In this document: positions 1 through 50,143 of the stretch, piece by piece
Layout of the letters: each line of letters starts with the position of its first letter
How positions within the stretch are numbered: position 1 is the stretch's first letter
Origin: Escherichia phage flopper
Sequence record: NC_048845.1
DNA length: 52,092 nucleotides
Reading direction: 5' to 3' (one strand)
Made by a program: the position numbers and the translations under genes
The notes under the pieces: model-generated
What the model was told of the DNA's origin: nothing
Database searches by the model: none
Seen by the model: the letters and a program-made list of their open reading frames with translations, nothing else

Positions 1-19
1 TCCAACTAATGTTTCAGAA
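1..19 (-). promoter_or_regulatory. conserved intergenic motif copy at the window edge
   Basis: TCCAACTAATGTTTCAGAA. Confidence 0.3.
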
Positions 20-80
20 TTATTCCAATATTCCAAACAAAAAGAATAATAAGAATAAATTAAATAAATGAAGAAAGTGC

Positions 81-110
81 TTGACACCCATTTGGCGATA
101 AGTGTATAAT
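81..110 (+). promoter_or_regulatory. near-consensus sigma70-type promoter on the plus strand (antisense to all genes)
   Basis: TTGACA (81-86), 18-nt spacer, TATAAT (105-110) with TG immediately upstream. Confidence 0.4.
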
Positions 111-140
111 GCCTTTCTTCCCTAAGTGGTCAGAATCAAA

Positions 141-158
141 TCCCACTAATGTTTCAGA
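141..158 (-). promoter_or_regulatory. conserved intergenic motif copy
   Basis: TCCCACTAATGTTTCAGA. Confidence 0.35.
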
Positions 159-220
159 CTAAAGCCGAAGGCCAATGCGAGTACAAACCCGCTTGGCACT
201 TCGAAGAAACCCGCCTGGAA

Positions 221-460
221 CTATAGTGTTTTCCAATCTGAGTCAAACAGCTCTTTCGGTCGTGTATAGATAGTAGAAGAGTCAATACTTAAGAAAGTGT
301 GGTCCCCGTACTTCTTCACTTCTTGGTAAGCAAACCCATCCACCCAACTTCCGCAGCGAGTTTTAATCTTTGTAGGCCCAAGAATACGATAGAAAGTGTT
401 TCGAGGCTGGTGGTGAACAATCAATCCAGCCTCAAGTTCAGCAATATTTAAATCACGCAT
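221..460 (-). CDS. hypothetical protein (start moved to internal ATG at 460)
   Basis: ORF 221..520 overlaps the upstream gene by 68 nt; the internal ATG at 460 gives an 8-nt ATGCGTGA start/stop overlap with the stop of 453..1001. Confidence 0.4.
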   Translation of the reverse strand: MRDLNIAELEAGLIVHHQPRNTFYRILGPTKIKTRCGSWVDGFAYQEVKKYGDHTFLSIDSSTIYTRPKELFDSDWKTL

Positions 461-1001
461 TTGAGAATAGTATCCCTTCGGAGAAAGTGTAGTCACTTCC
501 GTAATCTCTCGCAACTGCATCCCAATCGATATATGGACGAAGATGGTCTGGAACTTCTATGCCATCGTATTGCCGGAAGTAATCCGCAATTGAATCACAT
601 CGGGCAATAACCTTGTCGTTCAAGTCATCCACAGTGAAAATATCAATATCACCACTACGGAATGCTGCAAGAATTACATCCAAATCGGTGTCAACAAGCA
701 GCTCATTGAACTTATCATATTTACGGATGCTGAACAGTCCATTGGCAAAGCAAACTTCGGTAACATCCTCTTCGTTTGATTCAATTACGTCATATGTGCC
801 GTCTTCTGGATATTCAATGCCATATTCTTCATGCAAATAATCCCGCATGTCGAAATCATAGTGACGCCAAGACAGGCCATCAATCCACGCATCTACAAAT
901 TCAGAATTAGTTTCGCCTGTGTAGAAACGAACCAATAAGGTTTCATCTCTACGCCAGGACTTAAGTTGTTCCACTGCTTGAGTAATGTTATCGTTTTGCA
1001 T
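453..1001 (-). CDS. hypothetical highly acidic protein (D/E and aromatic rich)
   Basis: 182-aa ORF with high Asp/Glu content; no recognisable catalytic motif. Confidence 0.5.
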   Translation of the reverse strand: MQNDNITQAVEQLKSWRRDETLLVRFYTGETNSEFVDAWIDGLSWRHYDFDMRDYLHEEYGIEYPEDGTYDVIESNEEDVTEVCFANGLFSIRKYDKFNELLVDTDLDVILAAFRSGDIDIFTVDDLNDKVIARCDSIADYFRQYDGIEVPDHLRPYIDWDAVARDYGSDYTFSEGILFSNA

Positions 1002-1278
1002 TGAGTTTCTCCCAAGTACCTCTCAATTCTGTGTCCAGAATCTTAAGTTGATTGATTCGCTCATTCCCACCTTTGATAAGTGCACTGAGGATAGCAGCCT
1101 TCTCGTTGTAACTGACAGTGTAGACTACATCGTCAAGTTCCATAGTGTACTGCATCTTCTTTTCATCACCTACGTTAATTGATAGGTGCTGGTGGAGAAT
1201 ATTCTCTGCACGGATGGTTCTTGACTCCAGTGCATTCAACTCTCTTGGAATATCTTCGTAATTCATCGGATGCTCCAT
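988..1278 (-). CDS. hypothetical protein
   Basis: 96-aa ORF tightly packed with neighbours on the same strand. Confidence 0.45.
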   Translation of the reverse strand: MEHPMNYEDIPRELNALESRTIRAENILHQHLSINVGDEKKMQYTMELDDVVYTVSYNEKAAILSALIKGGNERINQLKILDTELRGTWEKLNAKR

Positions 1279-1286
1279 TGATTAAG

Positions 1287-1685
1287 TTATGCTGGAAGTT
1301 CGAAGTGCGGTGCGTCGAGGAACTTGGCCCATTTCACTGGCTTAGTGAAGGTCCGTTCCCATGTTCCGCCCCAACGAATAACAACTCCAAGCTCTTCTGC
1401 GGCTTTGAACATATGTTCAGCCACAGTTTGGAATCGTTCGAGGTCATTCCAGTCAATTGGATATGGTGCAATATCTAAAGCATTGCCTGACATGTGTCGG
1501 CTAACTGAAACTTTGGTTGCACCCTTCATTAACAGCTCTTGCTGACGCTCATAAGTGCGCAATCCTTCAAGAACAGTTACATCAAACGGCATTGTTTCAC
1601 ATGCACGCTTGAAAACTGCTACCAATGAGGGATTTACACCTTTGAGTCGGTCAAGTGAACGTTGGCCCAGTTTGACGTTAGACAT
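1287..1685 (-). CDS. peptidase M15-family peptidoglycan hydrolase (L-alanyl-D-glutamate peptidase-like)
   Basis: 132 aa with the SxHxxGxAxD zinc-binding signature (SRHMSGNALDIAP) and a size typical of small phage M15 endolysins; no signal peptide. Confidence 0.65.
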   Translation of the reverse strand: MSNVKLGQRSLDRLKGVNPSLVAVFKRACETMPFDVTVLEGLRTYERQQELLMKGATKVSVSRHMSGNALDIAPYPIDWNDLERFQTVAEHMFKAAEELGVVIRWGGTWERTFTKPVKWAKFLDAPHFELPA

Positions 1686-2170: not shown

Positions 2171-2517
2171 TTAACTTCCTTACAATATGTTGATAACAGT
2201 GGAAATTTGGCATGAAAGAAGTCAATGTCACGATAAATCTGTAGCACTAAACGTTCCTCAGCGTCAACACCAACTAAAGCCAGCTTACTGCTCTGTGTGT
2301 TATAGAACACTGTGGACATTGGGTTAGGATTCCCGTTATCTGGAACCTCAATCCAAGTACCTTCGTGCAAAGAAATTGTTGCAATGAGTGGCTGGCTCAT
2401 TGTAATTGTTTCAACGGACATTTTATATCCGCCACATTGAAAGTTTCGGACAGATGCTTCCGATTTGAATGCGAACACTCCAAATAAGATTGTCAGTGCA
2501 ATGTATAAAGTTTTCAC
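2167..2517 (-). CDS. hypothetical secreted protein
   Basis: N-terminal signal-peptide-like segment MKTLYIALTILFGVFAFKSEA followed by a polar domain. Confidence 0.5.
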   Translation of the reverse strand: MKTLYIALTILFGVFAFKSEASVRNFQCGGYKMSVETITMSQPLIATISLHEGTWIEVPDNGNPNPMSTVFYNTQSSKLALVGVDAEERLVLQIYRDIDFFHAKFPLLSTYCKEVK

Positions 2518-2705
2518 GGAATTAATGCCTCTGAACTATTTTAGATACAGTGTGTAACTTACCTTTATAAAGAATTGCACACCCAACTGTAATAAATTGT
2601 GTATTAAGTGTTGAAATTGGCTCGTCAACACCTTCAAGATAAATATCCCACATAAATCCTCCAATAATTAATCGAGGCCACTCGAAGTGGAATGACCTCT
2701 GTTAA

Positions 2706-3422
2706 TTACAGCTTCTTGATAAGCTCTGCGGATTTGCTTGCGGCAGCTTTCATTTCATCGCGTGCGGCTTTAGTGATTGATGCCTTGTCCACGCGAATGT
2801 TGCAGTTGCTGATTGCAATCTTGCCATCTTCTGTCGGTGCAAGCTGGGATAGTTCCAGCATTTGCTCCAGCTTTTGCAGAAGAATACGTTGTGCTTCAAT
2901 TGCATTTTGAATATTTAGAGTTTCCATAACTGCTCTTACCTTTCTTGAATAAGTTCCAGATAATGTCAGACGTACTTGCAAACCTTTTACGCCATCATAG
3001 TCAATATTGACTTTGTTGAATGGAGAATTTGGATGCTTGTACACATTTGTAACAGTTGCCCAATTGGCGTTGTACCAAATAACATCACCAACTTCCACAT
3101 CTTTTCCGAGAACATCTTCTTCATCGGATACTTTCTGCTTATTGAACTCTTCTACAGGAAGGAATACTGGAGTTACTATTGGAGTTATTTGGTTGGAAAA
3201 CTCAATTGTTGGAGTTTCCGAAGCTGGTGGCCTGTCCAACACTTTGACTATGCGCTCAAACTCAAAATTGTAATATCCACCAGAATATTGGAGTTGAACT
3301 ACAGAACTAAATCGTACAACCCTTTCAATTAAATATTCTCTGTTGCTGTATACTAGTACGTCCCCAGCTTTAACTAAATTGGCAGGTATTTCGACAAATT
3401 TATTTGCCATGATATTCCTCAC
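2706..3422 (-). CDS. hypothetical protein
   Basis: 238-aa ORF; start ambiguous (ATG at 3422 or 3410). Confidence 0.5.
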   Translation of the reverse strand: MRNIMANKFVEIPANLVKAGDVLVYSNREYLIERVVRFSSVVQLQYSGGYYNFEFERIVKVLDRPPASETPTIEFSNQITPIVTPVFLPVEEFNKQKVSDEEDVLGKDVEVGDVIWYNANWATVTNVYKHPNSPFNKVNIDYDGVKGLQVRLTLSGTYSRKVRAVMETLNIQNAIEAQRILLQKLEQMLELSQLAPTEDGKIAISNCNIRVDKASITKAARDEMKAAASKSAELIKKL

Positions 3423-3531
3423 GCATTGTTGAACAGTGTTTGCACACCCAAATGGTTACATAATCGTTTTCGTGTGAAATTTCCCAATTATGTAGCCCTA
3501 TAAAACATAGAATTTTCATAGGGCATCTCCA

Positions 3532-3906
3532 TTAGAACGGAATGTCGTCGTCGAAGTCTTTCGGCTCGTTCGGGTTGTAGTTGCTCTGCTGTTGTTGCTG
3601 AGCAGGTGCTTGCTGTTGTGCAGAAGGTTGCTGACGTTGCTGTTGCTGTTGAGCGGCAGCTTGAGGTTGAGCTTTGGCTTTAGCCTTCTCTTCACGCTTA
3701 CGCATCATTTCATCAACCTGTTCCTGAGTCATGATGGTTAATGCAAGTGAGGTAAACTCATTACCATTTGCTTGCTTGTTCCAACCAGATACCCAATACC
3801 AGATTCCGTCAACGTTAATACGCCCACGAATGTCGGGATGTTTTGGGTCTTTCTTGAAGCCGTTAGGACCGATGATGCCAGTGTTTACATCTGAATATTG
3901 TGCCAT
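3532..3906 (-). CDS. small SSB-like protein with SSB C-terminal tip
   Basis: 124 aa; Gln-rich linker and C-terminus NEPKDFDDDIPF, matching the E. coli SSB tail (...MDFDDDIPF); the N-terminal domain is only ~65 aa. Confidence 0.55.
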   Translation of the reverse strand: MAQYSDVNTGIIGPNGFKKDPKHPDIRGRINVDGIWYWVSGWNKQANGNEFTSLALTIMTQEQVDEMMRKREEKAKAKAQPQAAAQQQQQRQQPSAQQQAPAQQQQQSNYNPNEPKDFDDDIPF

Positions 3907-3982
3907 GATTAAGATTCTCTTAAGTTAATTACAGTTTAAGTTTCAGCGACATTGCTAACCACGGAATAGCTTTGTCCCTCTT

Positions 3983-4000
3983 ATCCAACTAATTGGATTA
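3983..4000 (-). promoter_or_regulatory. conserved intergenic motif copy upstream of the SSB-like gene
   Basis: TATCCAACTAATtgGAtt about 77 nt upstream of the start at 3906. Confidence 0.35.
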
Positions 4001-4031
4001 TTCGGGTACACTCGTAAATGCACCCTGATAA

Positions 4032-4565
4032 TCACTCAGATACAAATTTCTCAAACCTCGCTACTACAGCAGGGTCAAACAGGTTAAAACAAGGTATTCC
4101 AGACTGCACTGCAACCTGATATGCAGTGTTGGTGCCTCCGCTCACACCAGTTGATGTTGTCGGAGCATACAAGATACAGAACTTGGATGGGGTGTCTAAG
4201 TTAAGCCCAAGTACCTGACTAACATTTCGTGCCTGTAGTTTCCAAAATCCTCTGTATTTGTCGAGGTTTCTTGTCTCTTTCTTGTGAATTAGTGGGTTTA
4301 CGTTTTCAACACTTTGCAGGTATTCCCAATTTCGATTCAGGTCCGGCACTACGCCACCATAACTTCCAAAACCATTCCAAGGTATAAAGTTCTCTGTCCT
4401 TCCGTTGCAGCCAGCCAGGAATGCTTCGTCAGCACCTTGAGCACCTCCCGTACGAACTACCCAACCAAGTCTGGCCAGTTTGGAAGCCACTTTAGTCAGC
4501 AGTTCGCAAATATGCCCGGGAGTTTCACGACTTCCCACACCAGTGTAAAACATAAATACCTCCAA
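4032..4565 (-). CDS. SLOG/DprA-like Rossmann-fold protein
   Basis: GVGSRETP...(n)...VVRTGGAQGADEAF resembles the GxGSR...SGGAxGxD motif of the DprA/Smf/YpsA superfamily. Confidence 0.5.
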   Translation of the reverse strand: MEVFMFYTGVGSRETPGHICELLTKVASKLARLGWVVRTGGAQGADEAFLAGCNGRTENFIPWNGFGSYGGVVPDLNRNWEYLQSVENVNPLIHKKETRNLDKYRGFWKLQARNVSQVLGLNLDTPSKFCILYAPTTSTGVSGGTNTAYQVAVQSGIPCFNLFDPAVVARFEKFVSE

Positions 4566-4580
4566 AAGTTGTTATTCACA

Positions 4581-4597
4581 CTCAACTAATGTTAGAT
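4581..4597 (-). promoter_or_regulatory. conserved intergenic motif copy
   Basis: CTCAACTAATGTTAGAT 16 nt upstream of the start at 4565. Confidence 0.35.
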
Positions 4598-4632
4598 TAA
4601 TCAGGAACACTCAATGAATGCTCCTTGTTAAT

Positions 4633-4920
4633 TTACATCATCTTTGAAATTGGAATTGGGTCCATGTTTGATTCAGGTTTATACCAACTGACTTCGCCAG
4701 AATCTTTCACAAGTTCCCAATTATCGGAGAATGTACGATAACATAAATTGCGGTTATCGTCATTAACGACAAAACCCAAAGGAGATTGAATATACGCACC
4801 GAGTGTACCGTTGTTACGAGGAACTCCGTCACCACGACCTGCGACGATTTTGTATTTCTTGCCGCTGGTAAAGTTGTAGTTTGTTTTACCAACATAACGT
4901 AAGACTGAATTCTTGTTCAT
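4633..4920 (-). CDS. hypothetical protein
   Basis: 95-aa ORF. Confidence 0.45.
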   Translation of the reverse strand: MNKNSVLRYVGKTNYNFTSGKKYKIVAGRGDGVPRNNGTLGAYIQSPLGFVVNDDNRNLCYRTFSDNWELVKDSGEVSWYKPESNMDPIPISKMM

Positions 4921-5150
4921 TGCTTTAGTTTCTCCAAAGCGGATAATACGGAATCTCCAGAACCACTAATCACAAGCGTTTCTCCTGGAAGATTGTAGGA
5001 TATGTAAGAGAACGTCCATTTTACAATAGTTCTCTGATACGATGAGCTGTATTTATCAGACAGCTCTATATCTTGCCTTGCATCGTTTAGCAAGAACTCC
5101 TGCCCATTGATGGTCAGTTGCTTAAACATTTCGATATAATTCTTACCCAC
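4917..5150 (-). CDS. hypothetical protein
   Basis: 77-aa ORF with 4-nt overlap to its neighbour. Confidence 0.4.
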   Translation of the reverse strand: MGKNYIEMFKQLTINGQEFLLNDARQDIELSDKYSSSYQRTIVKWTFSYISYNLPGETLVISGSGDSVLSALEKLKQ

Positions 5151-5433
5151 GCTTCACCTTCTCCCATTTGGATAAACCACCTTCAAGATTGAAGATGCGA
5201 TTGCAACCAGATTCATCTTTGATGACAAACTGAGTTCCGGTTAACTGGATTGGCTCAAGTGCACCAAATATTATCTTGGGACCAGACAAGCTGGTGGCAA
5301 GAACTTCATATGCTTTGCTTGGGCAAATATCAAAAGCAAAGTCACGAGTGTAAACTAAGTCACCAACTTTCAAGTATGCTGGCAACAAGCGACCTGTGGC
5401 TGGGTCACGTTGTAGACGAGTACGCTGTTTCAT
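5143..5433 (-). CDS. hypothetical protein
   Basis: 96-aa ORF. Confidence 0.45.
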   Translation of the reverse strand: MKQRTRLQRDPATGRLLPAYLKVGDLVYTRDFAFDICPSKAYEVLATSLSGPKIIFGALEPIQLTGTQFVIKDESGCNRIFNLEGGLSKWEKVKRG

Positions 5434-6192: not shown

Positions 6193-6195
6193 TTG

Positions 6196-7336: not shown

Positions 7337-7530
7337 TTTATTCTCCTAAGTTAAAGAAAACTCCCTACAGAACGATTGTGGAGGTCTTGTCTTACCTCAA
7401 TCCACCTTAAAGTTGTAGGGAGTATGTGACACAGCAAGTGCCGAAGAACTACAATGATTAGCTTGGAGACATAATCTCTCTAAAATCTGTCACACAATTT
7501 CAGCAGAGTTTACAGAGATTTGGTCTTATT

Positions 7531-8360
7531 CACATGCAACTAATGATAAATGGACATGCTTAATTGCAACTAATTCATCTGCCAAATAGACGAATTTTGT
7601 CACAATTAAACATGCGTCATTAATTACAGGTTTACTCCCACACTTAACGTATTTGGCACATTAAGATTGGAGCAAGCAGGTACGGAAAACCGACCATGTA
7701 CAGCATAATAAAACTAATTAAATAAAGGGTTTTATCCCAATATTGTCACAATATTACATGCGATGATAAAGCCTTCGCTTGGCTGGAAGCCAGTATTCAT
7801 GCGGGTTGCAAGAATATTGGGTCAATACTGATACAGCTATTACATGCGAAATTGGCACAAATACTGTTACAAAATTAACATGCCAGATTGGTAGACGATT
7901 GTATCTTCGAGGTGATTAGTCCTCTAACAATTCTGCCACATTCCAACATGCCAATTTGTAGCAATATTTACATGCCATACTGCGACAATATTGTCACAAT
8001 ATTTGTTGCTCAAAATCGGGCGGGCTACGGGATTAGTTTCGCGGCTTTGCTCCGACTCTTCTCTTCTTTCGAATTCTGATTGAAAGAAAGAAGCATGTCC
8101 AAAAGTTCCAATATTACAAAAGTTATCTCCCGGCTTGTGGGTGGGCCTTTATAATAGGAGATGGAGCAATATTGTCGCAATTGAACATGCTTTAGTTGAA
8201 GAACAGTTTCGGATGATAATCCTACTTCACACATGGTTGCTGGAACTTTGTCCGGCCAAAGACAGGGAGTTCAATGATTGCCACATCATTACAACACTGT
8301 ATGTTTAGTTGACATGCTGAAATGTTTCTAGAATGATTTCAACATGACATGCGGAATACT
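7531..8360. repeat. cluster of at least 12 ACATGC half-site repeats in a non-coding region (candidate origin/regulatory region)
   Basis: Plus-strand ACATGC (often as ttACATGC / aACATGCc) recurs about 12 times in ~830 bp, plus aatattgtcacaatatt-type elements and a hairpin cttctttc-N11-gaaagaag near 8058-8095. Confidence 0.5.
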
Positions 8361-8381
8361 TCTCCGTATTCTGTTACTTCA

Positions 8382-8402
8382 CATCCAACTAATGTTACAG
8401 AT
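8382..8402 (-). promoter_or_regulatory. conserved intergenic motif copy at the edge of the ACATGC-rich region
   Basis: CATCCAACTAATGTTACAGAT. Confidence 0.35.
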
Positions 8403-8711: not shown

Positions 8712-10652
8712 TTATTGACAGAAGTAGTAAGCGTGTTCGCTCATCAGAAGCTCTTCGGTTACGATGTTCTCATGATACATCTGAATGCCACCAAGTTGCT
8801 TAGACAGATTCTCGAATTGATTGTTGGTTACGAAGATTTCAACATATGCTGCACGAATAACTTCCATCATGCGTGGAGCATCAGCTAAGCAGCAACGGAA
8901 ACAATCGTGGATTGAAGTAAAGCCACGAAGACCAGCTTCTTTAGCTTTAACTGCAACAGTACGAGCAACCAATGCGTCAATACCTTGGATGTAGTTAACA
9001 ACGAAGGTACGCTTGAACTCTTCTTTAGTTGGATTGGACTCACGAATGGTCCAAGGCTTATTCTCCTGAATCTGACCAAAGATGACACGAGTTTGAGAAT
9101 CAACACGAATGCTGAATGCCTCACAGATTTCACGAGATGGGAAGCAAGGCTTCATTACAACCTGACCATCAGTGTGGCGATATGTGATGTACTCTTTGCC
9201 AAGTTCAACACAACGGTTGTATGCAGCATCAGCAGCTTTCTCGATGAACATGTTAATCTTAGCACCCAATGCGTTATGGATTGCTTCTACACACAGTTCA
9301 GCAAATGCCTCAGCTTTCTCCATAGGAATCTGGAGAGCTTCTGTCATGTAGCTAATGAAGTCAGAAGAACCAGTCAATGCAGCTTTACCACCACCATATT
9401 GGATAGCCATGTATGGAGTTTTGATAAACTTACGACCAGCTTTCGGATTCAAGAATTCATCCATAATTTCAGGAGATGGCTTCATTGAAGAACGGTCTAA
9501 TAACTTCAACAGTTCACGAAGAGATAACTGGTATGGGTCAGATGCTTTAGTCTCAGAATCAACCAGACCTGTTGCACGAGCCATTTCCATGTTACCAGCA
9601 ATGAATGCCAGATATTGAGTACCAGAACATTTAGCATCTAAGCCAAAGCCTACACGAGAATCGCATTCACCTGTAGTCTCGAACTTGAACCAATCCAGAG
9701 CCAGACGAACATAAGTGAATGGCTTGGAAGGACGTTCAGCTTTAGGCATGTTCATCATGCGAGCAAGTGAACCAGCTGGATTCTGAGCAACATAAGTTAA
9801 ACGCTTAGCACTGCACCACTCACCACCGGAAATATCTTCCAGCTCTGCCATGAACATGTTGTATGCAATGGTAGTAGAACCATCTTCGTTAAACTTCTTA
9901 ACGATGTTCTCAACATTGTGAGAATACAAGCAACGAGCAAAGTCAGAGGATTGTGGGTTAGGACCAGCACATGCTACATGATACAGACGACCACGGTTAT
10001 CAGCGAAGTAGTCAGAATACAGCTTATCCTGATTCATCATTGCTACAGCATTGTTCCAAACATGAAGTTCAGTCTGGATTGCTTCTGGCACCTGCAAGCC
10101 ACCATAAGTACGTTGCTCAAGCATGGACTGGATGATGCGAACCATCTCAGTCTCCACATGGTACTCAGTATCTTGCAGGAATTCGATTGCAGCTTTCAGA
10201 GTTTTGGATGGCTTAACTTTGCCACCTTTAACGAAAGGCTTGCGACGAGATTCAGATGTAACACGCTCAGTGAATGGCACTGCTGTGTCTTTGGTTGTAA
10301 CCAGTTCAACCCATGTATCAGTTTGTTGGAATGACTTGTCTTCGTTCATGGTGATGAATCCAAAGTGCTTAGCCAAACCAATGAGGTTGATAGCTGGGTC
10401 AACATAGTGCATTGCTTTCAAATCGTTGTTATAACGGTTGGCATCAGCAATAGAAGCAGAAGCCAGCTCAACCATCGCGATGGCAGGAACAACGTCATCA
10501 CGAGTGAAAGACGTCATCATCTTGAAGATGGCTAAGGCAGCAATAGCACAAGTCTGTGGCTGCATATAGTTCTGTTTCTCTTTGGCACGATATACCAGAG
10601 CAGTGATAGCAGGAACAACGGATTTGATAGTTTGAGTGGTGATAGTAGTCAT
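8712..10652 (-). CDS. single-subunit (T7-like) DNA-directed RNA polymerase, short form
   Basis: 646 aa with motif A-like DAKCSGTQYLAFIAG, motif B-like RKFIKTPYMAIQYGGG and motif C-like IHDCFRCCLAD; GGAG RBS 8 nt upstream of the ATG. Confidence 0.8.
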   Translation of the reverse strand: MTTITTQTIKSVVPAITALVYRAKEKQNYMQPQTCAIAALAIFKMMTSFTRDDVVPAIAMVELASASIADANRYNNDLKAMHYVDPAINLIGLAKHFGFITMNEDKSFQQTDTWVELVTTKDTAVPFTERVTSESRRKPFVKGGKVKPSKTLKAAIEFLQDTEYHVETEMVRIIQSMLEQRTYGGLQVPEAIQTELHVWNNAVAMMNQDKLYSDYFADNRGRLYHVACAGPNPQSSDFARCLYSHNVENIVKKFNEDGSTTIAYNMFMAELEDISGGEWCSAKRLTYVAQNPAGSLARMMNMPKAERPSKPFTYVRLALDWFKFETTGECDSRVGFGLDAKCSGTQYLAFIAGNMEMARATGLVDSETKASDPYQLSLRELLKLLDRSSMKPSPEIMDEFLNPKAGRKFIKTPYMAIQYGGGKAALTGSSDFISYMTEALQIPMEKAEAFAELCVEAIHNALGAKINMFIEKAADAAYNRCVELGKEYITYRHTDGQVVMKPCFPSREICEAFSIRVDSQTRVIFGQIQENKPWTIRESNPTKEEFKRTFVVNYIQGIDALVARTVAVKAKEAGLRGFTSIHDCFRCCLADAPRMMEVIRAAYVEIFVTNNQFENLSKQLGGIQMYHENIVTEELLMSEHAYYFCQ

Positions 10653-10722
10653 TTGTAAGTCTCCAAGATTGTGTATGATTTAACTGAAACGGATTATAAT
10701 AGCGTAGCCATTACACAATTCA

Positions 10723-10740
10723 CAACCAACTAATATCACA
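10723..10740 (-). promoter_or_regulatory. conserved intergenic motif copy (candidate phage-RNAP promoter) upstream of the RNAP gene
   Basis: caACCAACTAATatcaca matches the repeated cacATCCAACTAATGTTtCAGA family. Confidence 0.35.
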
Positions 10741-22126: not shown

Positions 22127-22154
22127 TGCAATATACCTATTGAAATTAATACAT

Positions 22155-22172
22155 ATTCAACTAATGTTAAAG
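22155..22172 (-). promoter_or_regulatory. conserved intergenic motif copy (candidate phage promoter)
   Basis: ATTCAACTAATGTTaaAG lies between the tape-measure stop and the next start, just downstream of the hairpin at 22179..22192. Confidence 0.35.
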
Positions 22173-22178
22173 TAAGCT

Positions 22179-22192
22179 GGGGATTTCTCCCC
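22179..22192 (-). terminator. GC-rich stem-loop after the tape-measure gene (possible terminator or processing site)
   Basis: ggggaTTTCtcccc hairpin 6 nt after the stop; no clean U-run follows. Confidence 0.3.
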
Positions 22193-22198
22193 AACTCA

Positions 22199-34908: not shown

Positions 34909-36944
34909 GCGGAGTAGTTGGCACTTGGGCCAGAGAATTCGATTGCAACCATATCTGAAACGTTATCGACACAATCGTCGTGTCCAGTACCACTACCCAA
35001 AGAAGTGAATCCAAGTATTTCACGTCTAACATGGTCAATGTGTTCATGACCAGCAGGGAAGAATATTCTCTTTTGCGAGAAATATGGGATTGCGTTAAGG
35101 AATCGAGTTACCTTGTCATTACCATTGATGCCATCACGAGGCAGCGGTAAAACTCGGACACTCCCATCTCTAATAAATTGTTGATTCAAGAATTGTCCAG
35201 CAGACTTGTCTTCCATGTACAGTGCACGAGGAATACAACCTACACACTTCAAATCCAACTTGTTGCATTTGTTCCAGAAGTCGATGATAGCAGTCTTGAG
35301 TTCTGGAGTTTCGAACTTACCGAGCATAATATCTAAACAATAAACATCACGCTCTTTAGTCACGCCCCAATGCTTAAGGACCGAATAATCAGAATAGGAT
35401 TTGGCAGTTGATGCCGTATCCGCTGTAATAAAACTTCTGACTATGCGACTTCTGTCGAAAACGTCTGGTTCATACTCTTGCCACCAATCTTCTTTGATAA
35501 GGCCGTGGCCTTGTGCAGATGGGTCGCCAGCATACTGTGAATTGTATGTATATGGGTTAGACTCTTTCATTGCCTCCAGAGATTCTAAACTCTTACGTGA
35601 AGGCCATAATGCAGACTTCTCTTCCTTCCTGTTCAAATTGTACAGAATGGGAATAGCATGAGTGTAGTTCTGCTTCTTGATTAACTTATCATACCATTCA
35701 GCACTTCCAACGCCCTTCTCAATAATCGCTGGGATATTGAGATAATGGTATTTGTCGGAAGAGCCGCCACGGAGTATGTAACCAACTAAATCCTGGTCAT
35801 GAACTCGCTGCATGATGATAACCATTGGTGTACGGGCACACTTAATTTGGTTTCCGTACGAATCAGTTATGCAACCATCGTTGGCAAGACGGGACATAAA
35901 GGTGTTATCAAATCGGTCGTTGATTTCTGCTCGAACTGTGTCAGAGTAGGCATCTTTTGGTTTGATAACGTCATCCACCACGAAACAACCGGAGTATTTT
36001 GCAACAAGAAGTCCAGCACCTTTACCAGTCAGCTTACCACCAGTAGGTACTGCGTGCATAACTCCAGCTTTGGTTGTACCCCAGCGCTCAAGTGAACGTT
36101 TGTTGGGGTCGATTCTCACCTTCGGAAATATGCGTTGGAACAGTGGGTCCATCATTACAGCACGGATGTAACCACTCGATTCAAGAACAACGTCTTCTGC
36201 ATACGAGGTGATAATGTTATGGCTTGATTCATTGTGGCAAAATGAATACAAGGGCAATGCAATACTCATGAGCTGAGTCTTAGAGTGTCGTGGAGGAATG
36301 GTCACTATTAAGCGGTCAATCTCACCATCAACAACCTTTTGACCAACACTGAATATTACATCGTGAAAGTCTTGTGCTTGAAATGGAAATCCCATCTGAA
36401 TATGGAACTGCCATTTACCAAAGGCTTCGAAACTTTTCATCAAGATTTTGCGAACACGCTCTGCAACCTTGGCAGGGATTACAGTTGGGTCCACATTGTG
36501 TGGGTCATGCAGAATCTTGTCTACAAGTTCCTCGGTGTTATCATGCTCCGAGTTTGGCTCCTCTAATGTGGAACCTGCAACACGGTCAGTAACACCTGCT
36601 TGAATACCTTTCTTCAACTCATCTGCATAGGCAGTTGAGTCTTTCCTGTCGCCAGAGCGAAGACGCTCAAGTTGTGCTCTGAAAACGGAACGCAGTACAG
36701 CATCGTTTTCAAGACCCTGGCCTTCTAACTCTGCTTGAATTTGTTCTTCATAGCTGTCAACTATTGCAGTATTTTCTGAAATATATCGACGGAGCAATGG
36801 CAAAGATAGAATACAGAATCTTTCTCTTGAGACTTTTAATACGTCACCGTAGTGTTTGGCAAGATACGAGGCTACTGTATCATTAAACTCCGGCCCGAGG
36901 TCATCAGTCTTTGACATTGATTCGTTCTCTTTGTTTTTAATCAC
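34899..36944 (-). CDS. terminase large subunit
   Basis: 681 aa with ATPase-like region (IPPRHSKTQ) and C-terminal nuclease-like region. Confidence 0.8.
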   Translation of the reverse strand: MIKNKENESMSKTDDLGPEFNDTVASYLAKHYGDVLKVSRERFCILSLPLLRRYISENTAIVDSYEEQIQAELEGQGLENDAVLRSVFRAQLERLRSGDRKDSTAYADELKKGIQAGVTDRVAGSTLEEPNSEHDNTEELVDKILHDPHNVDPTVIPAKVAERVRKILMKSFEAFGKWQFHIQMGFPFQAQDFHDVIFSVGQKVVDGEIDRLIVTIPPRHSKTQLMSIALPLYSFCHNESSHNIITSYAEDVVLESSGYIRAVMMDPLFQRIFPKVRIDPNKRSLERWGTTKAGVMHAVPTGGKLTGKGAGLLVAKYSGCFVVDDVIKPKDAYSDTVRAEINDRFDNTFMSRLANDGCITDSYGNQIKCARTPMVIIMQRVHDQDLVGYILRGGSSDKYHYLNIPAIIEKGVGSAEWYDKLIKKQNYTHAIPILYNLNRKEEKSALWPSRKSLESLEAMKESNPYTYNSQYAGDPSAQGHGLIKEDWWQEYEPDVFDRSRIVRSFITADTASTAKSYSDYSVLKHWGVTKERDVYCLDIMLGKFETPELKTAIIDFWNKCNKLDLKCVGCIPRALYMEDKSAGQFLNQQFIRDGSVRVLPLPRDGINGNDKVTRFLNAIPYFSQKRIFFPAGHEHIDHVRREILGFTSLGSGTGHDDCVDNVSDMVAIEFSGPSANYSAWM

Positions 36945-37122
36945 AATCCACTAATGGTTGAGTTTGCACGGGATTGATGCGAATGATGCTGCCCAAACCA
37001 GAATCAGCCTTTAAATACAGGCGGTTTAGCGGCATATATGAATCACAGATAGGACATTGCTGCGTTATGAAATCATCTTCTGCAATTTCATAGTGGCAGT
37101 TAGGGCATTGTATTGTGCGCAT
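36937..37122 (-). CDS. zinc-ribbon protein
   Basis: 61 aa with CPNC...CPIC; 8-nt overlap with the terminase start. Confidence 0.4.
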   Translation of the reverse strand: MRTIQCPNCHYEIAEDDFITQQCPICDSYMPLNRLYLKADSGLGSIIRINPVQTQPLVDCD

Positions 37123-42139: not shown

Positions 42140-42412
42140 TTAATCGACTTGCAACACAGCAAGACGGAAGTCATATCCAACTAATGCTTCGGTCAGCTCT
42201 TCAATTGAAGACGTTGCCGAAATTAATGTTTGGATGTTTTTGAATGTCTCATCATTAAATGCTTGAGACTGTGGGTCAGACGAAGCGAATACTTTGTCCT
42301 TAATCTTTTCAAGGAACGCCATTACAGCGTCCTTTGCAGGAACTTCGGAATCAGCAGCAAACATATGATGCTCTAATTCCTGCATATCGAAAATTGAATA
42401 TACAGTTTGCAT
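42140..42412 (-). CDS. hypothetical protein
   Basis: 90 aa; its 3' end carries a copy of the conserved motif (42175..42192). Confidence 0.4.
   Translation of the reverse strand: MQTVYSIFDMQELEHHMFAADSEVPAKDAVMAFLEKIKDKVFASSDPQSQAFNDETFKNIQTLISATSSIEELTEALVGYDFRLAVLQVD
42175..42192 (-). promoter_or_regulatory. conserved motif copy (candidate phage promoter) inside the gene end
   Basis: ATCCAACTAATGcTTCgG about 66 nt upstream of the start at 42109. Confidence 0.3.
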
Positions 42413-47374: not shown

Positions 47375-47393
47375 AATCCAACTAACTTCGGGA
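47375..47393 (-). promoter_or_regulatory. degenerate copy of the conserved motif
   Basis: gAATCCAACTAActtcggg. Confidence 0.25.
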
Positions 47394-48172: not shown

Positions 48173-48332
48173 GCGATTTAATCTCGATAGATTCTTTTAA
48201 TGAATCTAGTTGCTTCTCTGTGGCTTCCTGACGCTCCTCGGCTTTGCCTGAGCTTTTGCCTTTGAGGAACACTGCAATAAGAATACCAAATGCAGTCAGG
48301 ACGCCAAGAATTACTGATTTAAGCTGTTGCAT
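48096..48332 (-). CDS. putative i-spanin (Rz-like), short
   Basis: 78 aa with N-terminal TM helix (VILGVLTAFGILIAVFL) then charged helical domain; AAGGTG RBS. Confidence 0.45.
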   Translation of the reverse strand: MQQLKSVILGVLTAFGILIAVFLKGKSSGKAEERQEATEKQLDSLKESIEIKSHVQKEVSSSSDSNVDSELLSKWVRK

Positions 48333-48340
48333 AAATCACC

Positions 48341-48481
48341 TTAGATGGCACACGCACCGCTTGAGCAGTCATTATCGCCAGCACCAGGAACGATTGCTTC
48401 TTCGTCCTGCTTCTTCTTGAGTTCTTCAATTGCTTCTTCGGCAGCACCGAAGTCCAAATTGTCTAGTGCATCAATGTCCAT
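48341..48481 (-). CDS. 45-aa peptide with RNR large-subunit-like C-terminal CxxxxC tail
   Basis: MDIDALDNLDFGAAEEAIEELKKKQDEEAIVPGAGDNDCSSGACAI; GGAG RBS 5 nt upstream; the tail DCSSGACAI resembles the E. coli NrdA C-terminus CESGACKI; stop lies 8 nt before the i-spanin ATG. Confidence 0.4.
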   Translation of the reverse strand: MDIDALDNLDFGAAEEAIEELKKKQDEEAIVPGAGDNDCSSGACAI

Positions 48482-48509
48482 GAGGACTCCATGTTATTGT
48501 TGAAAGTGG

Positions 48510-48602
48510 GTGGACGAGGTTGGATTCGAACCAACGACACATCTGTCGAACAGATTGCTCTACCTGACTAAGCTCTGGAGCAGACCTTCTGAGCTACTCG
48601 TC
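48510..48602 (-). tRNA. tRNA-like element (canonical acceptor stem and T-arm; internal arms non-canonical)
   Basis: Minus strand: GGACGAG / CTCGTCC 7-bp acceptor, U8-A9, GCUC D-stem start, T-arm GTTGG-TTCGAAT-CCAAC; ~93 nt. One fold gives a class II tRNA with anticodon loop GUCAGGU (CAG, Leu); another gives a 5-nt loop hairpin. Confidence 0.4.
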
Positions 48603-49038
48603 CAAATTGGGTGGGTTTTGATAACGCAGGTTTTCCCGAACTGCGAGGCTTGTAGAATCTGTGAGCCGCCTACTGTGTTTTGACATAACGTGGGATTGAT
48701 GGTCCCGACTCACTTCATCTCAGGTACGAGGCACTACTTTGCGAGTGCAAGCAGGTGTTGAACCCAAGTACCAACAGGCAACCTAACTTATCCCACCTTT
48801 GTGGGCATCATTGGTTTGAGCAGTTTATTTCCATGCTCAGGGCAACTCACTTTAGGGTGAATTAGGTTACGCAGTGCAGCTTCGAAGTCGCTGCCACAGG
48901 CTTGAGATTCCTGTGTGGAGGGAAATCCAGAGGAGCACTTCCTCAAGGAGTTACGTTTCAAATTGGCATAGCTTCTCACACTAAACCAATTGAAGACATT
49001 CCAGTGTGCTCGTCCGTCCTCTAGAAATATCCAACTGC

Positions 49039-49234
49039 ATAATTAAGTTTGTACTCTGGTAGGAGATGCCACATAATATTTTAGGCTCCGCGCTCTCCAA
49101 CACTACCAATCATGAGTGCACCAATCTTGGCGAACAACACCAGAATACAAATTAATAATTAAGTTTGTACTCTGTCACATCCCCACGCGCACTGGAGGAC
49201 TTAAGCCTGCATTGCATCGCAGAATACAAATTAA
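49039..49234. repeat. direct repeats in non-coding region (aattaagtttgtactctg x2; agaatacaaattaat x2)
   Basis: Copies at 49039-49058 / 49154-49173 and 49141-49155 / 49219-49234. Confidence 0.5.
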
Positions 49235-49703
49235 TTATTGCTCCGATTTATTAATCACATCTCGAAGCCACAATGCGCCAAATTTGGTTACGTGGGATTG
49301 GAAGACCACGGAGAGGACTTAAATTTAATTAAGCCGCAACTCGCATTTCAGAATCATTTGCATTTATTTTAAATGAATAAAACAGTCGCAATAACTTCGG
49401 GCAGTTTAGGCCCGTCGTAAGACTCAGAAAACTACTTCAATTTGTACACAACAAATTTCCCAACATTGCCTTCCGTCGAAGGCTCATGCACTGGTGTTTG
49501 AATTATGCACAAATTGAAATAACTTCAATGAACACTCTCGTCTGGGCCATGAGCTTGGGCATCGGCCTTCCTCCCAACTCTAATCACAAGAATGCTCATT
49601 GAAGCCCACTCTTCCTTTCAGAGTGGGTTCAAGGCAGCACCGGAAAACTTCCAGTGCACGCCAGATCGATTTAGCTTAGTCTCTCAAGTTTGCCATCGGC
49701 AAC

Positions 49704-50042
49704 TTAGAATACCGGAGCTTCTTCAACAGCAGCTTCGGCAGCTTCGGCAACACTTGCGTCAGCAACTTTAGCTTCTTTCGGAGTATCGAACTTAGTACGC
49801 TCAACTTCCGGCTCGCCAGCTTCAACCCACGGCAGGTAGAATGCCAGGAACTGCTCGATGGTGTTCTTCTGCATGGAGCGAGAACGGTCGATAGCACCAA
49901 CGGTGTTCAGGTACGCTTCGGCAGCTTTCTCAATTTTAGCACCGTTTTCCAGTTTGAAGTCATGTGCATTACATTCTGCTTCGGTCAGGAACAGGGAACC
50001 ATCGTTAGCTTCGTACTGAGTTACGGTTACAATCTTAGCCAT
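49704..50042 (-). CDS. hypothetical early protein with acidic C-terminus
   Basis: 112 aa; AAGG RBS; C-terminal EAKVADASVAEAAEAAVEEAPVF. Confidence 0.5.
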   Translation of the reverse strand: MAKIVTVTQYEANDGSLFLTEAECNAHDFKLENGAKIEKAAEAYLNTVGAIDRSRSMQKNTIEQFLAFYLPWVEAGEPEVERTKFDTPKEAKVADASVAEAAEAAVEEAPVF

Positions 50043-50122
50043 TTGTATATACCTTATATTGAATAGTTTTGCACGCCACGGTGACGTGACTTAGATAAAA
50101 ATTAAAGAGCCTTTCTCTTTCC

Positions 50123-50143
50123 ACATCCAACTAATGTTTCAGA
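50123..50143 (-). promoter_or_regulatory. conserved intergenic motif copy (candidate phage promoter)
   Basis: CATCCAACTAATGTTTCAGAA about 80 nt upstream of the start at 50042, preceded by an imperfect hairpin ctgattcgt-caa-acgactcag. Confidence 0.4.

What the first reader, a model, noticed from the sequence alone, without database searches (positions are those of the whole stretch)
1..50143. A ~22-bp motif repeated in at least ten intergenic positions, all in one orientation: candidate phage-RNAP promoter
Plus-strand consensus cacATCCAACTAATGTTtCAGA (minus-strand reading TCTGaAACATTAGTTGGATGTGaa) occurs at 1-19, 141-158, 3983-4000, 4581-4597, 8382-8402, 10723-10740, 22155-22172, 42175-42192, 47375-47393 and 50123-50143. 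Copies lie 16-80 nt upstream of minus-strand gene starts and twice just downstream of hairpins that follow the preceding stop codon. That layout is what T7-type terminator-promoter junctions look like, and the phage encodes its own single-subunit RNAP. Partial copies (ACATGCAACTAATG, 7531-7575) link it to the ACATGC cluster.
Basis: seen in the sequence. Interest (0 to 1): 0.5.

Follow-up and report, generated by a model that had tools for sequence, protein, structure and literature searches.

The report
Phage RNA polymerase promoter repeats
A 19-20 bp sequence repeated about a dozen times, always pointing the same way as the genes, is very probably the promoter read by this phage's own small T7-type RNA polymerase; the same sites were annotated as putative promoters in the related phage phiEcoM-GJ1 in 2008, so it is an ordinary feature that has still not been tested by experiment.

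Summary
The window is a complete, circularly permuted genome of a phiEcoM-GJ1-like myovirus (Chaseviridae, Carltongylesvirus-like), with all genes on the minus strand. Read on the minus strand, the motif is rrCATTAGTtGrAwgTGaa. It has 10 strong copies (at least 16 bits), none on the antisense strand and none in shuffles. Eight of the 11 copies at a 15-bit cut-off are non-coding (p = 2e-6). One strong copy before the terminase gene (36939-36958) was missed.

The motif is not new. GenBank EF460875 (2008) annotates the same sequence at syntenic positions as "putative phage promoter 1-9". No experimental mapping turned up, and the 2022 ICTV profile says Chaseviridae promoters are "not yet identified".

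Comparative data support the promoter reading:
- The motif recurs in sense orientation at syntenic junctions in six genera, often after a structurally conserved hairpin.
- It has no sigma-70 -10 partner.
- Two Nefertitivirinae phages lack it. Their RNA polymerases (32-35% identical) have a rewritten specificity loop, and different oriented motifs follow the polymerase gene.

The 646-aa polymerase has the T7 RNAP fold. The start site is inferred to be the invariant G at motif position 17. Verdict: already known as a prediction, well supported, low to moderate interest.

The parts
8712..10652 (-). Single-subunit RNA polymerase gene (646 aa), the presumed reader of the motif
   Evidence: Pfam RNA_pol E=6e-18, 65 bits against a cut-off of 22. 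Motifs A (GLDAKCSG), B (RKFIKTPYMAIQYGGG) and C (IHDCF) are seen in the translation. AF2 model has pLDDT 93. Top Foldseek hits are T7 RNAP, E=6e-19, TMq 0.61.
10718..10737 (-). Motif copy GATATTAGTTGGTTGTGAAT, 65 nt upstream of the RNAP start codon (possible autoregulatory promoter). Predicted start G at 10721.
   Evidence: PWM 24.4 bits. A copy lies upstream of the RNAP gene in all six Cleopatravirinae genomes and in L008, but on different sides of the conserved block GGCTACGC. Not annotated in the GJ1 record.
8377..8396 (-). Motif copy AACATTAGTTGGATGTGAAG (best match; GJ1 promoter 1) after the RNAP gene and a 74-aa ORF. Predicted start 8380.
   Evidence: 31.1 bits. Syntenic in GJ1 2898, Y2 2226, PM1 2297, Myduc 2203 and 4HA13 2704. 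Preceded by the intrinsic-terminator-like hairpin 8449-8464 and the hairpin 8402-8421.
7528..7547 (-). Motif copy ATCATTAGTTGCATGTGAAT (GJ1 promoter 2) at the end of the gene-poor GCATGT repeat region. Predicted start 7531.
   Evidence: 27.7 bits. Conserved in GJ1 3834 and Y2 3096.
4574..4593 (-). Motif copy AACATTAGTTGAGTGTGAAT (upstream half of duplicated GJ1 promoter 3), 20 nt before ATG 4553. Predicted start 4577.
   Evidence: 28.4 bits. Hairpin 4596-4632 lies directly after the stop codon of the 95-aa ORF. Alignment to GJ1.
3983..4000 (-). Degenerate copy (CCAATTAGTTGGATAAGAGG), the downstream half of the duplicated hairpin-plus-motif unit, before the SSB-like gene. It has lost the GTGAA half.
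   Evidence: Scores below 10 bits. Hairpin 4004-4025 lies upstream. Its downstream flank is homologous to that of GJ1 promoter 3.
134..153 (-). Motif copy AACATTAGTGGGATTTGATT (GJ1 promoter 4). Predicted start 137.
   Evidence: 26.0 bits. Strong hairpin 171-197 upstream, -16.5 kcal/mol, within the lowest 1% of the genome background.
1..19 (-). Motif copy cut by the window start (GJ1 promoter 5). The 20-mer runs 13..1 then 52092..52086 (AACATTAGTTGGA|ATTGAAG). Predicted start 52089.
   Evidence: The circular junction reads TTCTGAAACATTAGTTGGAATTGAAGAGAC. 26.9 bits.
50119..50138 (-). Motif copy AACATTAGTTGGATGTGGAA (GJ1 promoter 7), 76 nt before a 112-aa gene. Predicted start 50122.
   Evidence: 27.8 bits. 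Syntenic in Y2 14527, PM1 13344, Myduc 14704 and 4HA13 12634.
50451..50470 (-). Weak in-gene copy AGAATTAGTTGGAAGAGGAC (GJ1 promoter 6) inside the 224-aa gene. Function doubtful.
   Evidence: 10.2 bits. Present in all genera, but inside a conserved coding sequence.
50889..50908 (-). Weak in-gene copy GACATTAGTTGATTTGGGAA. Function doubtful.
   Evidence: 14.6-15.0 bits, inside a 108-aa ORF.
47375..47393 (-). Degenerate half-site CCCGAAGTTAGTTGGATTC in a gene-poor stretch. Probably not functional.
   Evidence: Below 10 bits and lacks the TG(A)A half. It lies in a block 91% identical to GJ1.
42169..42188 (-). Motif copy AGCATTAGTTGGATATGACT (GJ1 promoter 8) within the 3' end of a 90-aa ORF, 59 nt before the 288-aa gene that opens the exonuclease/ligase block. 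Predicted start 42172.
   Evidence: 26.5 bits. Syntenic in 4HA13 21699.
36939..36958 (-). Motif copy ACCATTAGTGGATTGTGATT, 21 nt before the terminase large-subunit ATG (36917). Predicted start 36942.
   Evidence: 18.5-22.9 bits. Conserved in GJ1 at 26982, where an HNH gene is inserted about 25 nt downstream of it.
22149..22168 (-). Motif copy AACATTAGTTGAATATGTAT (GJ1 promoter 9) between the 1241-aa tail gene and the baseplate-hub gene. Predicted start 22152.
   Evidence: 26.7 bits. Syntenic in all six genera.
22173..22198 (-). GC-rich stem-loop (GAGTTGGGGAGAAATCCCCAGCTTAC) immediately after the stop codon, followed by a T-rich spacer and then the motif: a terminator-promoter junction.
   Evidence: -17.6 kcal/mol, within the lowest 0.2% of the genome background. 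The stem sequence differs in each genus, but a GC-rich stem plus tetraloop plus T-rich tail is kept.

Best explanation
The repeats are the promoters of the phage-encoded T7-family single-subunit RNA polymerase (gene 8712-10652, minus strand).

Inferred mechanism:
- Host RNA polymerase first transcribes the polymerase gene, which is the first gene of the genome.
- The 646-aa enzyme then binds the asymmetric roughly 19-22 bp duplex rrCATTAGTtGrAwgTGaa.
- Its specificity beta-hairpin (residues about 506-537) probably reads the invariant TTAGTTG block in the major groove.
- It melts the AwgT segment and starts at the invariant G (motif position 17, for example window 8380, 4577, 22152).
- This drives rightward (minus-strand) transcription units for the early, replication, packaging/head/tail and baseplate/fibre modules.
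- In about a third of the copies a stem-loop plus T-rich tract just upstream ends or attenuates the preceding unit, giving a terminator-promoter junction.
- A copy upstream of the polymerase gene itself would give positive feedback.

Shown: the motif statistics, orientation, synteny and conservation, the absence of a -10 element, the fold of the polymerase, and the prior annotation. Inferred: the binding mode, the start site, and the terminator and feedback roles.
For: 1. Statistics. 10 hits against 0.67 expected. At 16 bits or more, sense/antisense/shuffled counts are 10/0/0 in the window. With the same window-derived PWM they are 7/0/0 (4HA13), 5/0/0.1 (Y2), 7/0/0.05 (PM1) and 8/0/0 (Myduc). 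The motif is the top non-low-complexity repeat de novo.

2. Placement. 8 of 11 copies lie in the 10.8% of sequence that is non-coding, p = 2e-6. Copies sit at module boundaries.

3. Conservation. Copies are syntenic in six genera while the flanks diverge. The pooled logo of 55 unique sites is information-rich only at positions 1-19, with T6, A7, G11 and G17 invariant.

4. Not a host promoter. TAnnnT at the proper spacing occurs in 6/58 sites against a 4% background, with no positional peak. Sigma-70-like matches are at or below shuffle level over the whole genome.

5. Pfam RNA_pol; catalytic motifs A, B and C; AF2 pLDDT 93 with T7 RNAP as the top structural match.

6. Clade-level co-variation. 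The specificity-loop segment is nearly invariant in Cleopatravirinae, which share the motif. It is rewritten with indels in VPs20 and ZPAH14. Those two have zero motif hits and instead carry other oriented motifs starting right after their RNAP genes: CTCGCCCRCTAG, 9 sense and 2 antisense against 4.3 expected; CGRGCCAAAAG, 7 sense and 0 antisense against 1.5 expected. Intermediate clades (RNAP 54% and 44% identical) keep (CA)TTAGTTG but change the 3' half to TGGAGAATA.

7. Start site. Position 17 is G in 55/55 sites and position 18 is a purine in 49/55, while positions 20-21 show no purine preference. GAA and GGAGA starts resemble the SP6 (GAAG) and T7 (GGGAGA) initial sequences, recalled from memory.

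8. Prior art. EF460875 annotates nine such sites as putative phage promoters.

9. Hairpins. 18 of 58 sites have an upstream 45-nt MFE in the lowest 5% of the genome background, where about 3 are expected.
Against: - There is no experimental evidence anywhere. [quoted passage not shown]
- The polymerase is very remote from T7 RNAP in sequence (phmmer finds no PDB hit; profile E = 0.002). Its N-terminal domain is about half the size of T7's, so T7-style recognition through the AT-rich loop and intercalating hairpin cannot be assumed.
- The segment before the proposed start is AwgT, not the TATA of T7-group promoters.
- The CATTAGTTG half persists down to 44% RNAP identity although specificity-loop residues drift. 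That is more conservative than in the T7/T3/K11/SP6 series.
- A promoter directly upstream of the polymerase gene is atypical for T7.
- Some copies lie in ORFs.
- Orientation bias and intergenic placement would also fit an RNA-level signal.
Confidence: 0.85

Rival explanations
1. The motif is the binding site of another DNA-binding factor. One option is an activator box for host RNA polymerase, as in T4 MotA-dependent middle promoters. Another is a phage repressor or operator. Either way it would not be read directly by the phage RNAP.
For: A conserved 9-bp core (CATTAGTTG) followed by a more variable half would fit a factor box. The core is retained across RNAPs only 44% identical. The ICTV profile regards the promoters as unidentified.
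Against: There is no -10-like TAnnnT at any fixed distance downstream: 6/58 against a 4% background, with no positional peak. Sigma-70-like sites are not enriched anywhere. The motif is asymmetric rather than palindromic. It is lost exactly in the subfamily whose RNAP specificity loop is rewritten. No candidate factor was identified, although the small early proteins were not screened systematically.
Confidence: 0.07
2. The motif acts in RNA, as a processing or stability signal or a translation signal that is part of long polycistronic transcripts. In that case the neighbouring hairpins are the main functional element.
For: The motif is strictly in sense orientation. It is frequently adjacent to conserved stem-loops. 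T7 itself has RNase III sites at gene junctions (established knowledge).
Against: The motif has no base-pairing potential of its own and lies outside the hairpins. Its distance to start codons varies from 8 to 191 nt. Two thirds of the copies have no stable hairpin. A copy precedes the first gene of the genome, just downstream of the physical left end in Y2, PM1 and Myduc (positions 171-186), where little upstream RNA exists. The information profile (contiguous invariant bases over about 19 nt) is typical of duplex recognition.
Confidence: 0.05
3. The repeats are mainly recombination or cassette-boundary sequences. Like the PeSL elements of T4-type phages, they would persist because they mediate gene shuffling, without being active promoters at most positions.
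For: The window carries a roughly 590-bp ORF insertion flanked on both sides by the duplicated hairpin-plus-motif unit. GJ1 has an HNH gene inserted about 25 nt from the pre-terminase copy.
Against: This is not exclusive with promoter function, since PeSLs are themselves promoters. Most copies sit at junctions that are invariant in gene content across six genera. After the duplication, the redundant downstream copy decayed in its 3' half, which argues that selection acts on function rather than on repeat identity.
Confidence: 0.03

Closest known systems
'Putative phage promoters 1-9' of Escherichia phage phiEcoM-GJ1 (GenBank EF460875; Jamalludeen et al. 2008, AEM 74:516)
   Same: The 20-mer is the same (for example GACATTAGTTGGATGTGAAG, AACATTAGTTGGATGTGGAA). 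Nine of the window's copies are syntenic with promoters 1-9: window 8377=P1, 7528=P2, 4574/3983=P3, 134=P4, junction=P5, 50451=P6, 50119=P7, 42169=P8, 22149=P9.
   Different: The window has two further conserved copies that are also present in GJ1 but not annotated there: one upstream of the RNAP gene and one upstream of terminase. P3 is duplicated around an inserted ORF. The GJ1 paper itself could not be read here, so only the GenBank features were compared.
T7-group (T7, T3, SP6, K11) single-subunit RNAP promoters
   Same: A single asymmetric conserved block of about 20 bp co-oriented with the genes. No -35/-10 elements. Read by a phage-encoded T7-fold RNAP. Some copies sit inside upstream genes. 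Tandem copies occur. Terminator or hairpin-promoter junctions occur. Initiation at G is likely. If G17 is +1, the invariant block falls at -12 to -6, where the T7 specificity loop reads its promoter (established knowledge; the register here is inferred).
   Different: The sequence is unrelated apart from a short TTAG.TG resemblance to SP6 and K11 in another register (from memory; a lead only). There is no TATA at -4 to -1. The RNAP is 646 aa against 883 aa, with a half-size N-terminal domain, and is only about 14% identical to T7 RNAP in the structural alignment. A copy precedes the RNAP gene. The virion is a myovirus.
PeSL (promoter-early stem-loop) mobile regulatory cassettes of T4-type phages
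   Same: Repeated stem-loop-plus-promoter modules in intergenic regions that flank variable ORFs. Here the module is duplicated on both sides of an inserted 173-aa ORF.
   Different: PeSLs carry sigma-70 early promoters, whereas these have no -10/-35 elements. Only two indel examples were examined.
T4 MotA-box middle promoters
   Same: A conserved box upstream of phage genes that redirects transcription after the early phase.
   Different: A MotA box needs a sigma-70 -10 element at a fixed spacing. None is present here.

Membership tests
T7-type single-subunit RNAP promoter | A cognate single-subunit (T7-fold) RNAP is encoded by the same genome | tested here: met
   PF00940 at 65 bits against a cut-off of 22. 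Motifs A, B and C are present. AF2 pLDDT 93, with T7 RNAP as top Foldseek hit, E=6e-19.
T7-type single-subunit RNAP promoter | One contiguous asymmetric conserved block of about 17-23 bp, present in many copies, all co-oriented with transcription | tested here: met
   Logo information is confined to positions 1-19. Window counts are 10 sense, 0 antisense and 0 shuffled. The same pattern holds in five other genomes.
T7-type single-subunit RNAP promoter | Copies lie upstream of genes or gene modules, mostly in non-coding DNA | tested here: met
   8 of 11 copies lie in the 10.8% of sequence that is non-coding, p = 2e-6. Module boundaries are listed.
T7-type single-subunit RNAP promoter | Independence from host sigma-70 elements | tested here: met
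   No TAnnnT at fixed spacing. No sigma-70-like enrichment genome-wide.
T7-type single-subunit RNAP promoter | Promoter sequence co-varies with the RNAP specificity loop between related phages | tested here: inconclusive
   The clade-level pattern fits: loop and motif are both conserved in Cleopatravirinae and both changed in Nefertitivirinae, and the 3' half drifts in intermediate clades. No residue-to-base correspondence could be established.
T7-type single-subunit RNAP promoter | Transcripts with 5'-triphosphate start at a defined purine at the 3' end of the motif, and the purified RNAP initiates there in vitro | not testable with these tools
   There are no transcript data. G17 (55/55) is only an inference. 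No mapping is reported in the literature searched.
phiEcoM-GJ1 'putative phage promoter' set | Same consensus sequence at syntenic genome positions | tested here: met
   The sequences of the nine annotated features were extracted and matched.
Sigma-70 / MotA-type host-RNAP promoter | A -10 hexamer (TAnnnT) at a fixed distance from the conserved box | tested here: not met
   6/58 against a 4% background, with no positional peak 11-55 nt from the motif start.
PeSL-like mobile regulatory cassette | A stem-loop-plus-promoter module repeated at the borders of variable gene cassettes | tested here: inconclusive
   One clear case is the insertion flanked by a duplicated module. One adjacent HNH insertion occurs in GJ1. 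Most copies sit at junctions with conserved gene content.
Intrinsic-terminator / promoter junction | A stable GC-rich hairpin plus T-rich tract directly upstream of the promoter, conserved in structure rather than in sequence | tested here: met
   Met for a subset. 18 of 58 sites are in the lowest 5% of background MFE. At the tail/baseplate junction the stems differ in sequence but are kept in six genera. Termination itself was not tested.

The most novel reading that the evidence does not exclude
The motif is the cognate promoter of an unusually compact T7-family polymerase. The enzyme is 646 aa, its N-terminal domain is about half that of T7, and it has a conserved basic loop RRKPxVKGGKVKPSK. 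It would start at the invariant G17, giving a small orthogonal polymerase-promoter pair that has never been characterised.

In addition, the hairpin-plus-promoter units may act as portable cassette borders. The tandem copies at 134-153 and at the window junction may mark the replication origin, together with the conserved antisense consensus sigma-70 promoter (81-110, plus strand) and the AT-rich tract between them, in analogy to the T7 phi1.1A/B origin.
Probability: 0.25. Interest if true: 0.5.

Novelty: already known. Interest (0 to 1): 0.28.

Why it matters
For this window it explains how the single-strand gene layout is transcribed and where the transcription units begin. More generally, Chaseviridae are the myoviruses that carry a T7-type polymerase, and their 2022 ICTV profile still lists the promoters as unidentified.

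The comparative evidence gathered here has four parts:
- Six genera share one motif at syntenic junctions.
- Intermediate clades show a drifting 3' half.
- Two Nefertitivirinae genomes carry different motifs and a rewritten specificity loop.
- No -10 element accompanies the motif.

Together these make the 2008 prediction robust. They also give exact, testable start-site coordinates and a minimal 19-bp element for in vitro work with a 646-aa polymerase. No new principle is involved.

Tried and rejected
- Reading the GJ1 (PMC2223254) and Y2 (PMC3165370) papers: not held. The GenBank features were used instead.
- Full-text search for the motif sequence returned only unrelated primer sequences among the papers listed.
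- A lead to a Lavigne/Anany multi-omics paper turned out to concern a Listeria phage.
- Sigma-70 or MotA-type promoter: rejected, because there is no -10 element.
- The motif as part of the 'ACATGC cluster': rejected. That cluster is a different repeat (GCATGT plus the palindrome AATATTGTGACAATATT), and only the copy at 7528-7547 shares the hexamer.
- Direct sequence homology of the RNAP to T7 RNAP: phmmer found nothing and a profile reached only E = 0.002. Structure prediction was therefore used.
- De novo 14-mer search in the Nefertitivirinae genomes found no motif. Intergenic k-mer counting did.
- Rfam (gathering threshold) found nothing in the window.
- Fixing the start site from the SP6/K11 'TTAG' resemblance was rejected, because positions 20-21 lack a purine preference.

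Full report
IDENTITY OF THE WINDOW. Megablast places the window among phiEcoM-GJ1-like myoviruses (Chaseviridae, Cleopatravirinae, Carltongylesvirus-like). The best matches are Bp10 (92% over the first half), Bp7 and ST32 (96% over the second half) and GJ1 (94%). All long ORFs are on the minus strand. The window is a complete, circularly permuted genome. Its first base cuts a motif copy, and joining end to start restores TTCTGAAACATTAGTTGGA|ATTGAAGAGAC, which is GJ1 'promoter 5'.

CHECK OF THE OBSERVATION. All ten loci carry the core as stated.
- The 14-mer ATCCAACTAATGTT with up to 2 mismatches occurs 10 times against 0.67 expected. No shuffle of 100 reaches 10.
- A 20-mer PWM (minus-strand reading AACATTAGTTGGATGTGAAG) gives 10 sense, 0 antisense and 0 shuffled hits at 16 bits or more.
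- De novo 14-mer counting ranks the family first after CTGCTG-type coding low complexity.
- 3983-4000 and 47375-47393 retain only ATTAGTTGGAT and score below 10 bits.
- The 'partial copy' at 7528-7547 is a full-strength copy.
- A further strong copy lies at 36939-36958, 21 nt before the terminase ATG.
- Two weak in-gene copies lie at 50889-50908 and 50451-50470.
- Eight of the 11 copies at a 15-bit cut-off fall in the 10.8% of the genome not covered by coding-strand ORFs (p = 2e-6).

PRIOR KNOWLEDGE. GenBank EF460875 (phiEcoM-GJ1, 2008) carries nine regulatory features named 'putative phage promoter 1-9'. Their sequences are this motif, and they are syntenic with the window's copies. [quoted passage not shown] The ST32, 4HA13, Myduc, PYps23T and Tiny papers contain no promoter mapping. 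The finding is therefore a rediscovery of an old, still unverified prediction.

THE POLYMERASE. ORF 8712-10652 (646 aa) matches Pfam RNA_pol at 65 bits against a cut-off of 22. It shows motif A (GLDAKCSGTQY), motif B (RKFIKTPYMAIQYGGG) and motif C (IHDCF). Sequence similarity to T7 RNAP is minimal. phmmer finds no PDB hit, and a five-genus profile reaches only E = 0.002. That profile aligns DNRGR with T7 DWRGR (421-425) and IHDCF with T7 IHDSF.

An AlphaFold2 model built from 70 homologues has pLDDT 93 and pTM 0.87. Its best Foldseek matches are T7 RNAP (E = 6e-19, TMq 0.61, 14% identity), followed by mitochondrial RNAPs. Beta-hairpins at residues 506-537 occupy the place of the T7 specificity loop. 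The region before the T7-317 equivalent is only about 150 residues. It contains a widely conserved basic loop, RRKPxVKGGKVKPSK.

COMPARATIVE EVIDENCE. The window-derived PWM was applied to five other Cleopatravirinae genomes: GJ1, 4HA13, Y2, PM1 and Myduc (RNAP 92-67% identical). It finds 5-10 sense hits at 16 bits or more, no antisense hits, and at most 0.1 in shuffles.

Copies recur at the same junctions:
- upstream of the RNAP gene;
- just after the RNAP gene;
- before the SSB gene;
- inside and just after the 224-aa gene;
- between the large tail gene and the baseplate hub.

At the tail/baseplate junction, six genera keep a GC-rich stem-loop whose stem sequence differs in each. A T-rich 7-9 nt stretch and then the motif follow it. 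The copy upstream of the RNAP gene lies on different sides of a conserved GGCTACGC block in different genera. This means the copy has turned over while still being retained.

The pooled logo of 55 unique sites is rrCATTAGTtGrAwgTGaa, with T6, A7, G11 and G17 invariant. Information is close to zero outside positions 1-19, apart from a T two bases upstream.

Genus-level variants affect positions 12-16: 4HA13 has GGAATTGA and Myduc has GAGWGTGAAG. In uncultivated relatives the 5' half persists. At 54% RNAP identity it reads nGTTAGTTGG. At 44% it reads CATTArTTG, while the 3' half becomes TGGAGAATA, with 9 sense and 0 antisense hits.

In two Nefertitivirinae genomes (VPs20 and ZPAH14, RNAP 35% and 32% identical in alignment A3) the motif is absent, and the specificity-loop segment is rewritten with indels. 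Other oriented motifs begin right after the RNAP gene. CTCGCCCRCTAG has 9 sense and 2 antisense copies against 4.3 expected. CGRGCCAAAAG has 7 sense and 0 antisense against 1.5 expected.

EXCLUDING A HOST-TYPE PROMOTER. A TAnnnT hexamer 16-18 nt after the TTG of the motif occurs in 6/58 sites against a 4% background. There is no positional peak anywhere up to 55 nt. Sigma-70-like matches are at or below shuffle expectation across the genome (26 vs 28.6, 27 vs 30.3, 12 vs 18.5).

HAIRPINS. The 45 nt upstream of the motif fold more stably than the 45 nt downstream (mean -9.7 against -6.2 kcal/mol). Eighteen of 58 sites fall in the lowest 5% of their genome background, where about 3 are expected. 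In the window these are the copies at 22149, 134, 4574 and 8377. The last also follows a canonical hairpin with a U-run at 8449-8464. The degenerate copy at 3983 also has an upstream hairpin. The terminator-promoter layout is therefore real for about a third of the copies.

MECHANISM (INFERRED). Host RNAP expresses the polymerase gene, which is the first gene. In 4HA13 and Myduc that gene lies inside a roughly 3.1-3.2 kb direct terminal repeat. The phage RNAP then recognises the duplex motif.

The start site is most likely G17. That position is G in 55/55 sites and position 18 is a purine in 49/55, whereas positions 20-21 show no purine preference. The GG(A)GA start in L009 resembles the T7 initial sequence GGGAGA, and GAAG resembles that of SP6 (both from memory). 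With G17 as +1, the invariant TTAGTTG block lies at -12 to -6. That is where the T7 specificity loop reads its promoter (established knowledge).

The alternative register, which aligns TTAG with SP6 and K11 at -15 to -12, would put +1 at positions 20-21. It is disfavoured.

RIVALS. An activator box for host RNAP fails the -10 test. An RNA-level signal is disfavoured for three reasons: the distance to start codons is variable, the motif has no intrinsic structure, and a copy sits within about 190 nt of the physical left end in Y2, PM1 and Myduc. A purely recombinational role is not exclusive with promoter function.

One clear cassette event exists. Relative to GJ1, the window has a roughly 590-bp insertion (ORF 4032-4553, 173 aa, sub-threshold DprA-like hit) exactly at promoter 3. 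The whole hairpin-plus-motif unit is duplicated on both sides, and the downstream copy has decayed in its 3' half. GJ1 in turn has an HNH gene inserted about 25 nt after the pre-terminase copy.

VERDICT. The feature is already known as a prediction for the type phage. The confidence that it is the phage-RNAP promoter is about 0.85. The missing piece is experimental 5'-end mapping or in vitro transcription.

Noticed in passing
window 81-110 (+ strand): A perfect consensus sigma-70 promoter (TTGACA-N18-TATAAT) points against the direction of all genes. It lies between the tandem motif copies at 134-153 and at the window junction, next to an AT-rich tract (about 20-75). It is the only TTGACA-N16-18-TAHAAT match on either strand of the window. 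An equally perfect, syntenic, antisense copy with a different spacer sequence is the only such match in GJ1, 4HA13, PM1 and Myduc. Possible roles are an antisense RNA or replication-origin priming (compare the T7 phi1.1A/B origin). No terminator is obvious downstream.
   Followed up: partly
window 7530-8352 (- strand): This is the 'ACATGC cluster'. Eleven of the window's 32 GCATGT hexamers lie in a gene-poor stretch of about 1 kb between two motif copies, all in the same orientation. Each is followed by ATTGTGACAATATT-like sequence, and the palindrome AATATTGTCACAATATT occurs at 7739-7755 and 7987-8003. The same element forms the hairpin upstream of promoter 1 in GJ1, PM1 and Y2 and recurs after the RNAP gene in L008, whose RNAP is 54% identical. 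In 4HA13 and Myduc the predicted terminal repeat ends inside the equivalent region. Function unknown; it could be operators, terminal-repeat boundary repeats or host promoters.
   Followed up: partly
window 3983-4632: Relative to GJ1, a roughly 590-bp insertion carries a 173-aa ORF (4032-4553; weak, sub-threshold DprA-like Pfam hit). It sits exactly at promoter 3 and is flanked by a duplicated hairpin-plus-motif unit. The downstream copy has lost its GTGAA half.
   Followed up: yes
L001 (GJ1) 26982-27520 vs window 36908-36958: GJ1 carries an HNH endonuclease gene (27023-27514) inserted about 25 nt downstream of the pre-terminase motif copy. The window lacks this gene.
   Followed up: partly
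window 8712-10652 (-): The polymerase is compact: 646 aa, against 718 and 845 aa in the Nefertitivirinae relatives and 883 aa in T7. The part N-terminal to the T7-317 equivalent is only about 150 residues. It includes a strongly conserved basic loop RRKPxVKGGKVKPSK (residues about 136-150), which may substitute for the T7 promoter-binding loops.
   Followed up: partly
L005 (VPs20) 2318-21008; L007 (ZPAH14) 2766-9202: Two Nefertitivirinae phages have their own oriented candidate promoter motifs that start right after the RNAP gene. These are CTCGCCCRCTAG in VPs20 and, in ZPAH14, CGRGCCAAAAG, which in some copies (e.g. 4714-4731) forms the 3' arm of a GGCTC-N4-GAGCC-type stem-loop.
   Followed up: partly
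L008 18330-19304; L009 151-1035; proteins P0074, P0079, P0107, P0115: More distant homologues of this polymerase (35-54% identical) occur on contigs with phage integrase genes. They also occur inside bacterial chromosomes or large bacterial contigs: Hafnia alvei 4.8 Mb, Pseudomonas brenneri 6.3 Mb, P. laurylsulfatiphila, and Lelliottia. This suggests temperate relatives of the lytic Chaseviridae.
   Followed up: no
window 48507-48604 (-): ARAGORN and Rfam with default settings find no tRNA. With introns allowed, ARAGORN calls an intron-containing tRNA here, matching the intron-bearing tRNA annotated in GJ1.
   Followed up: partly
window 10690-10712 (-) and equivalents: A conserved block (A/G)TGGCTACGCTA..TAATCC lies upstream of the RNAP gene in all six Cleopatravirinae genomes. 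It overlaps a weak sigma-70-like match (TTGTGA-18-TATTAT, 10725-10696). It may be part of the host promoter that first expresses the polymerase.
   Followed up: no
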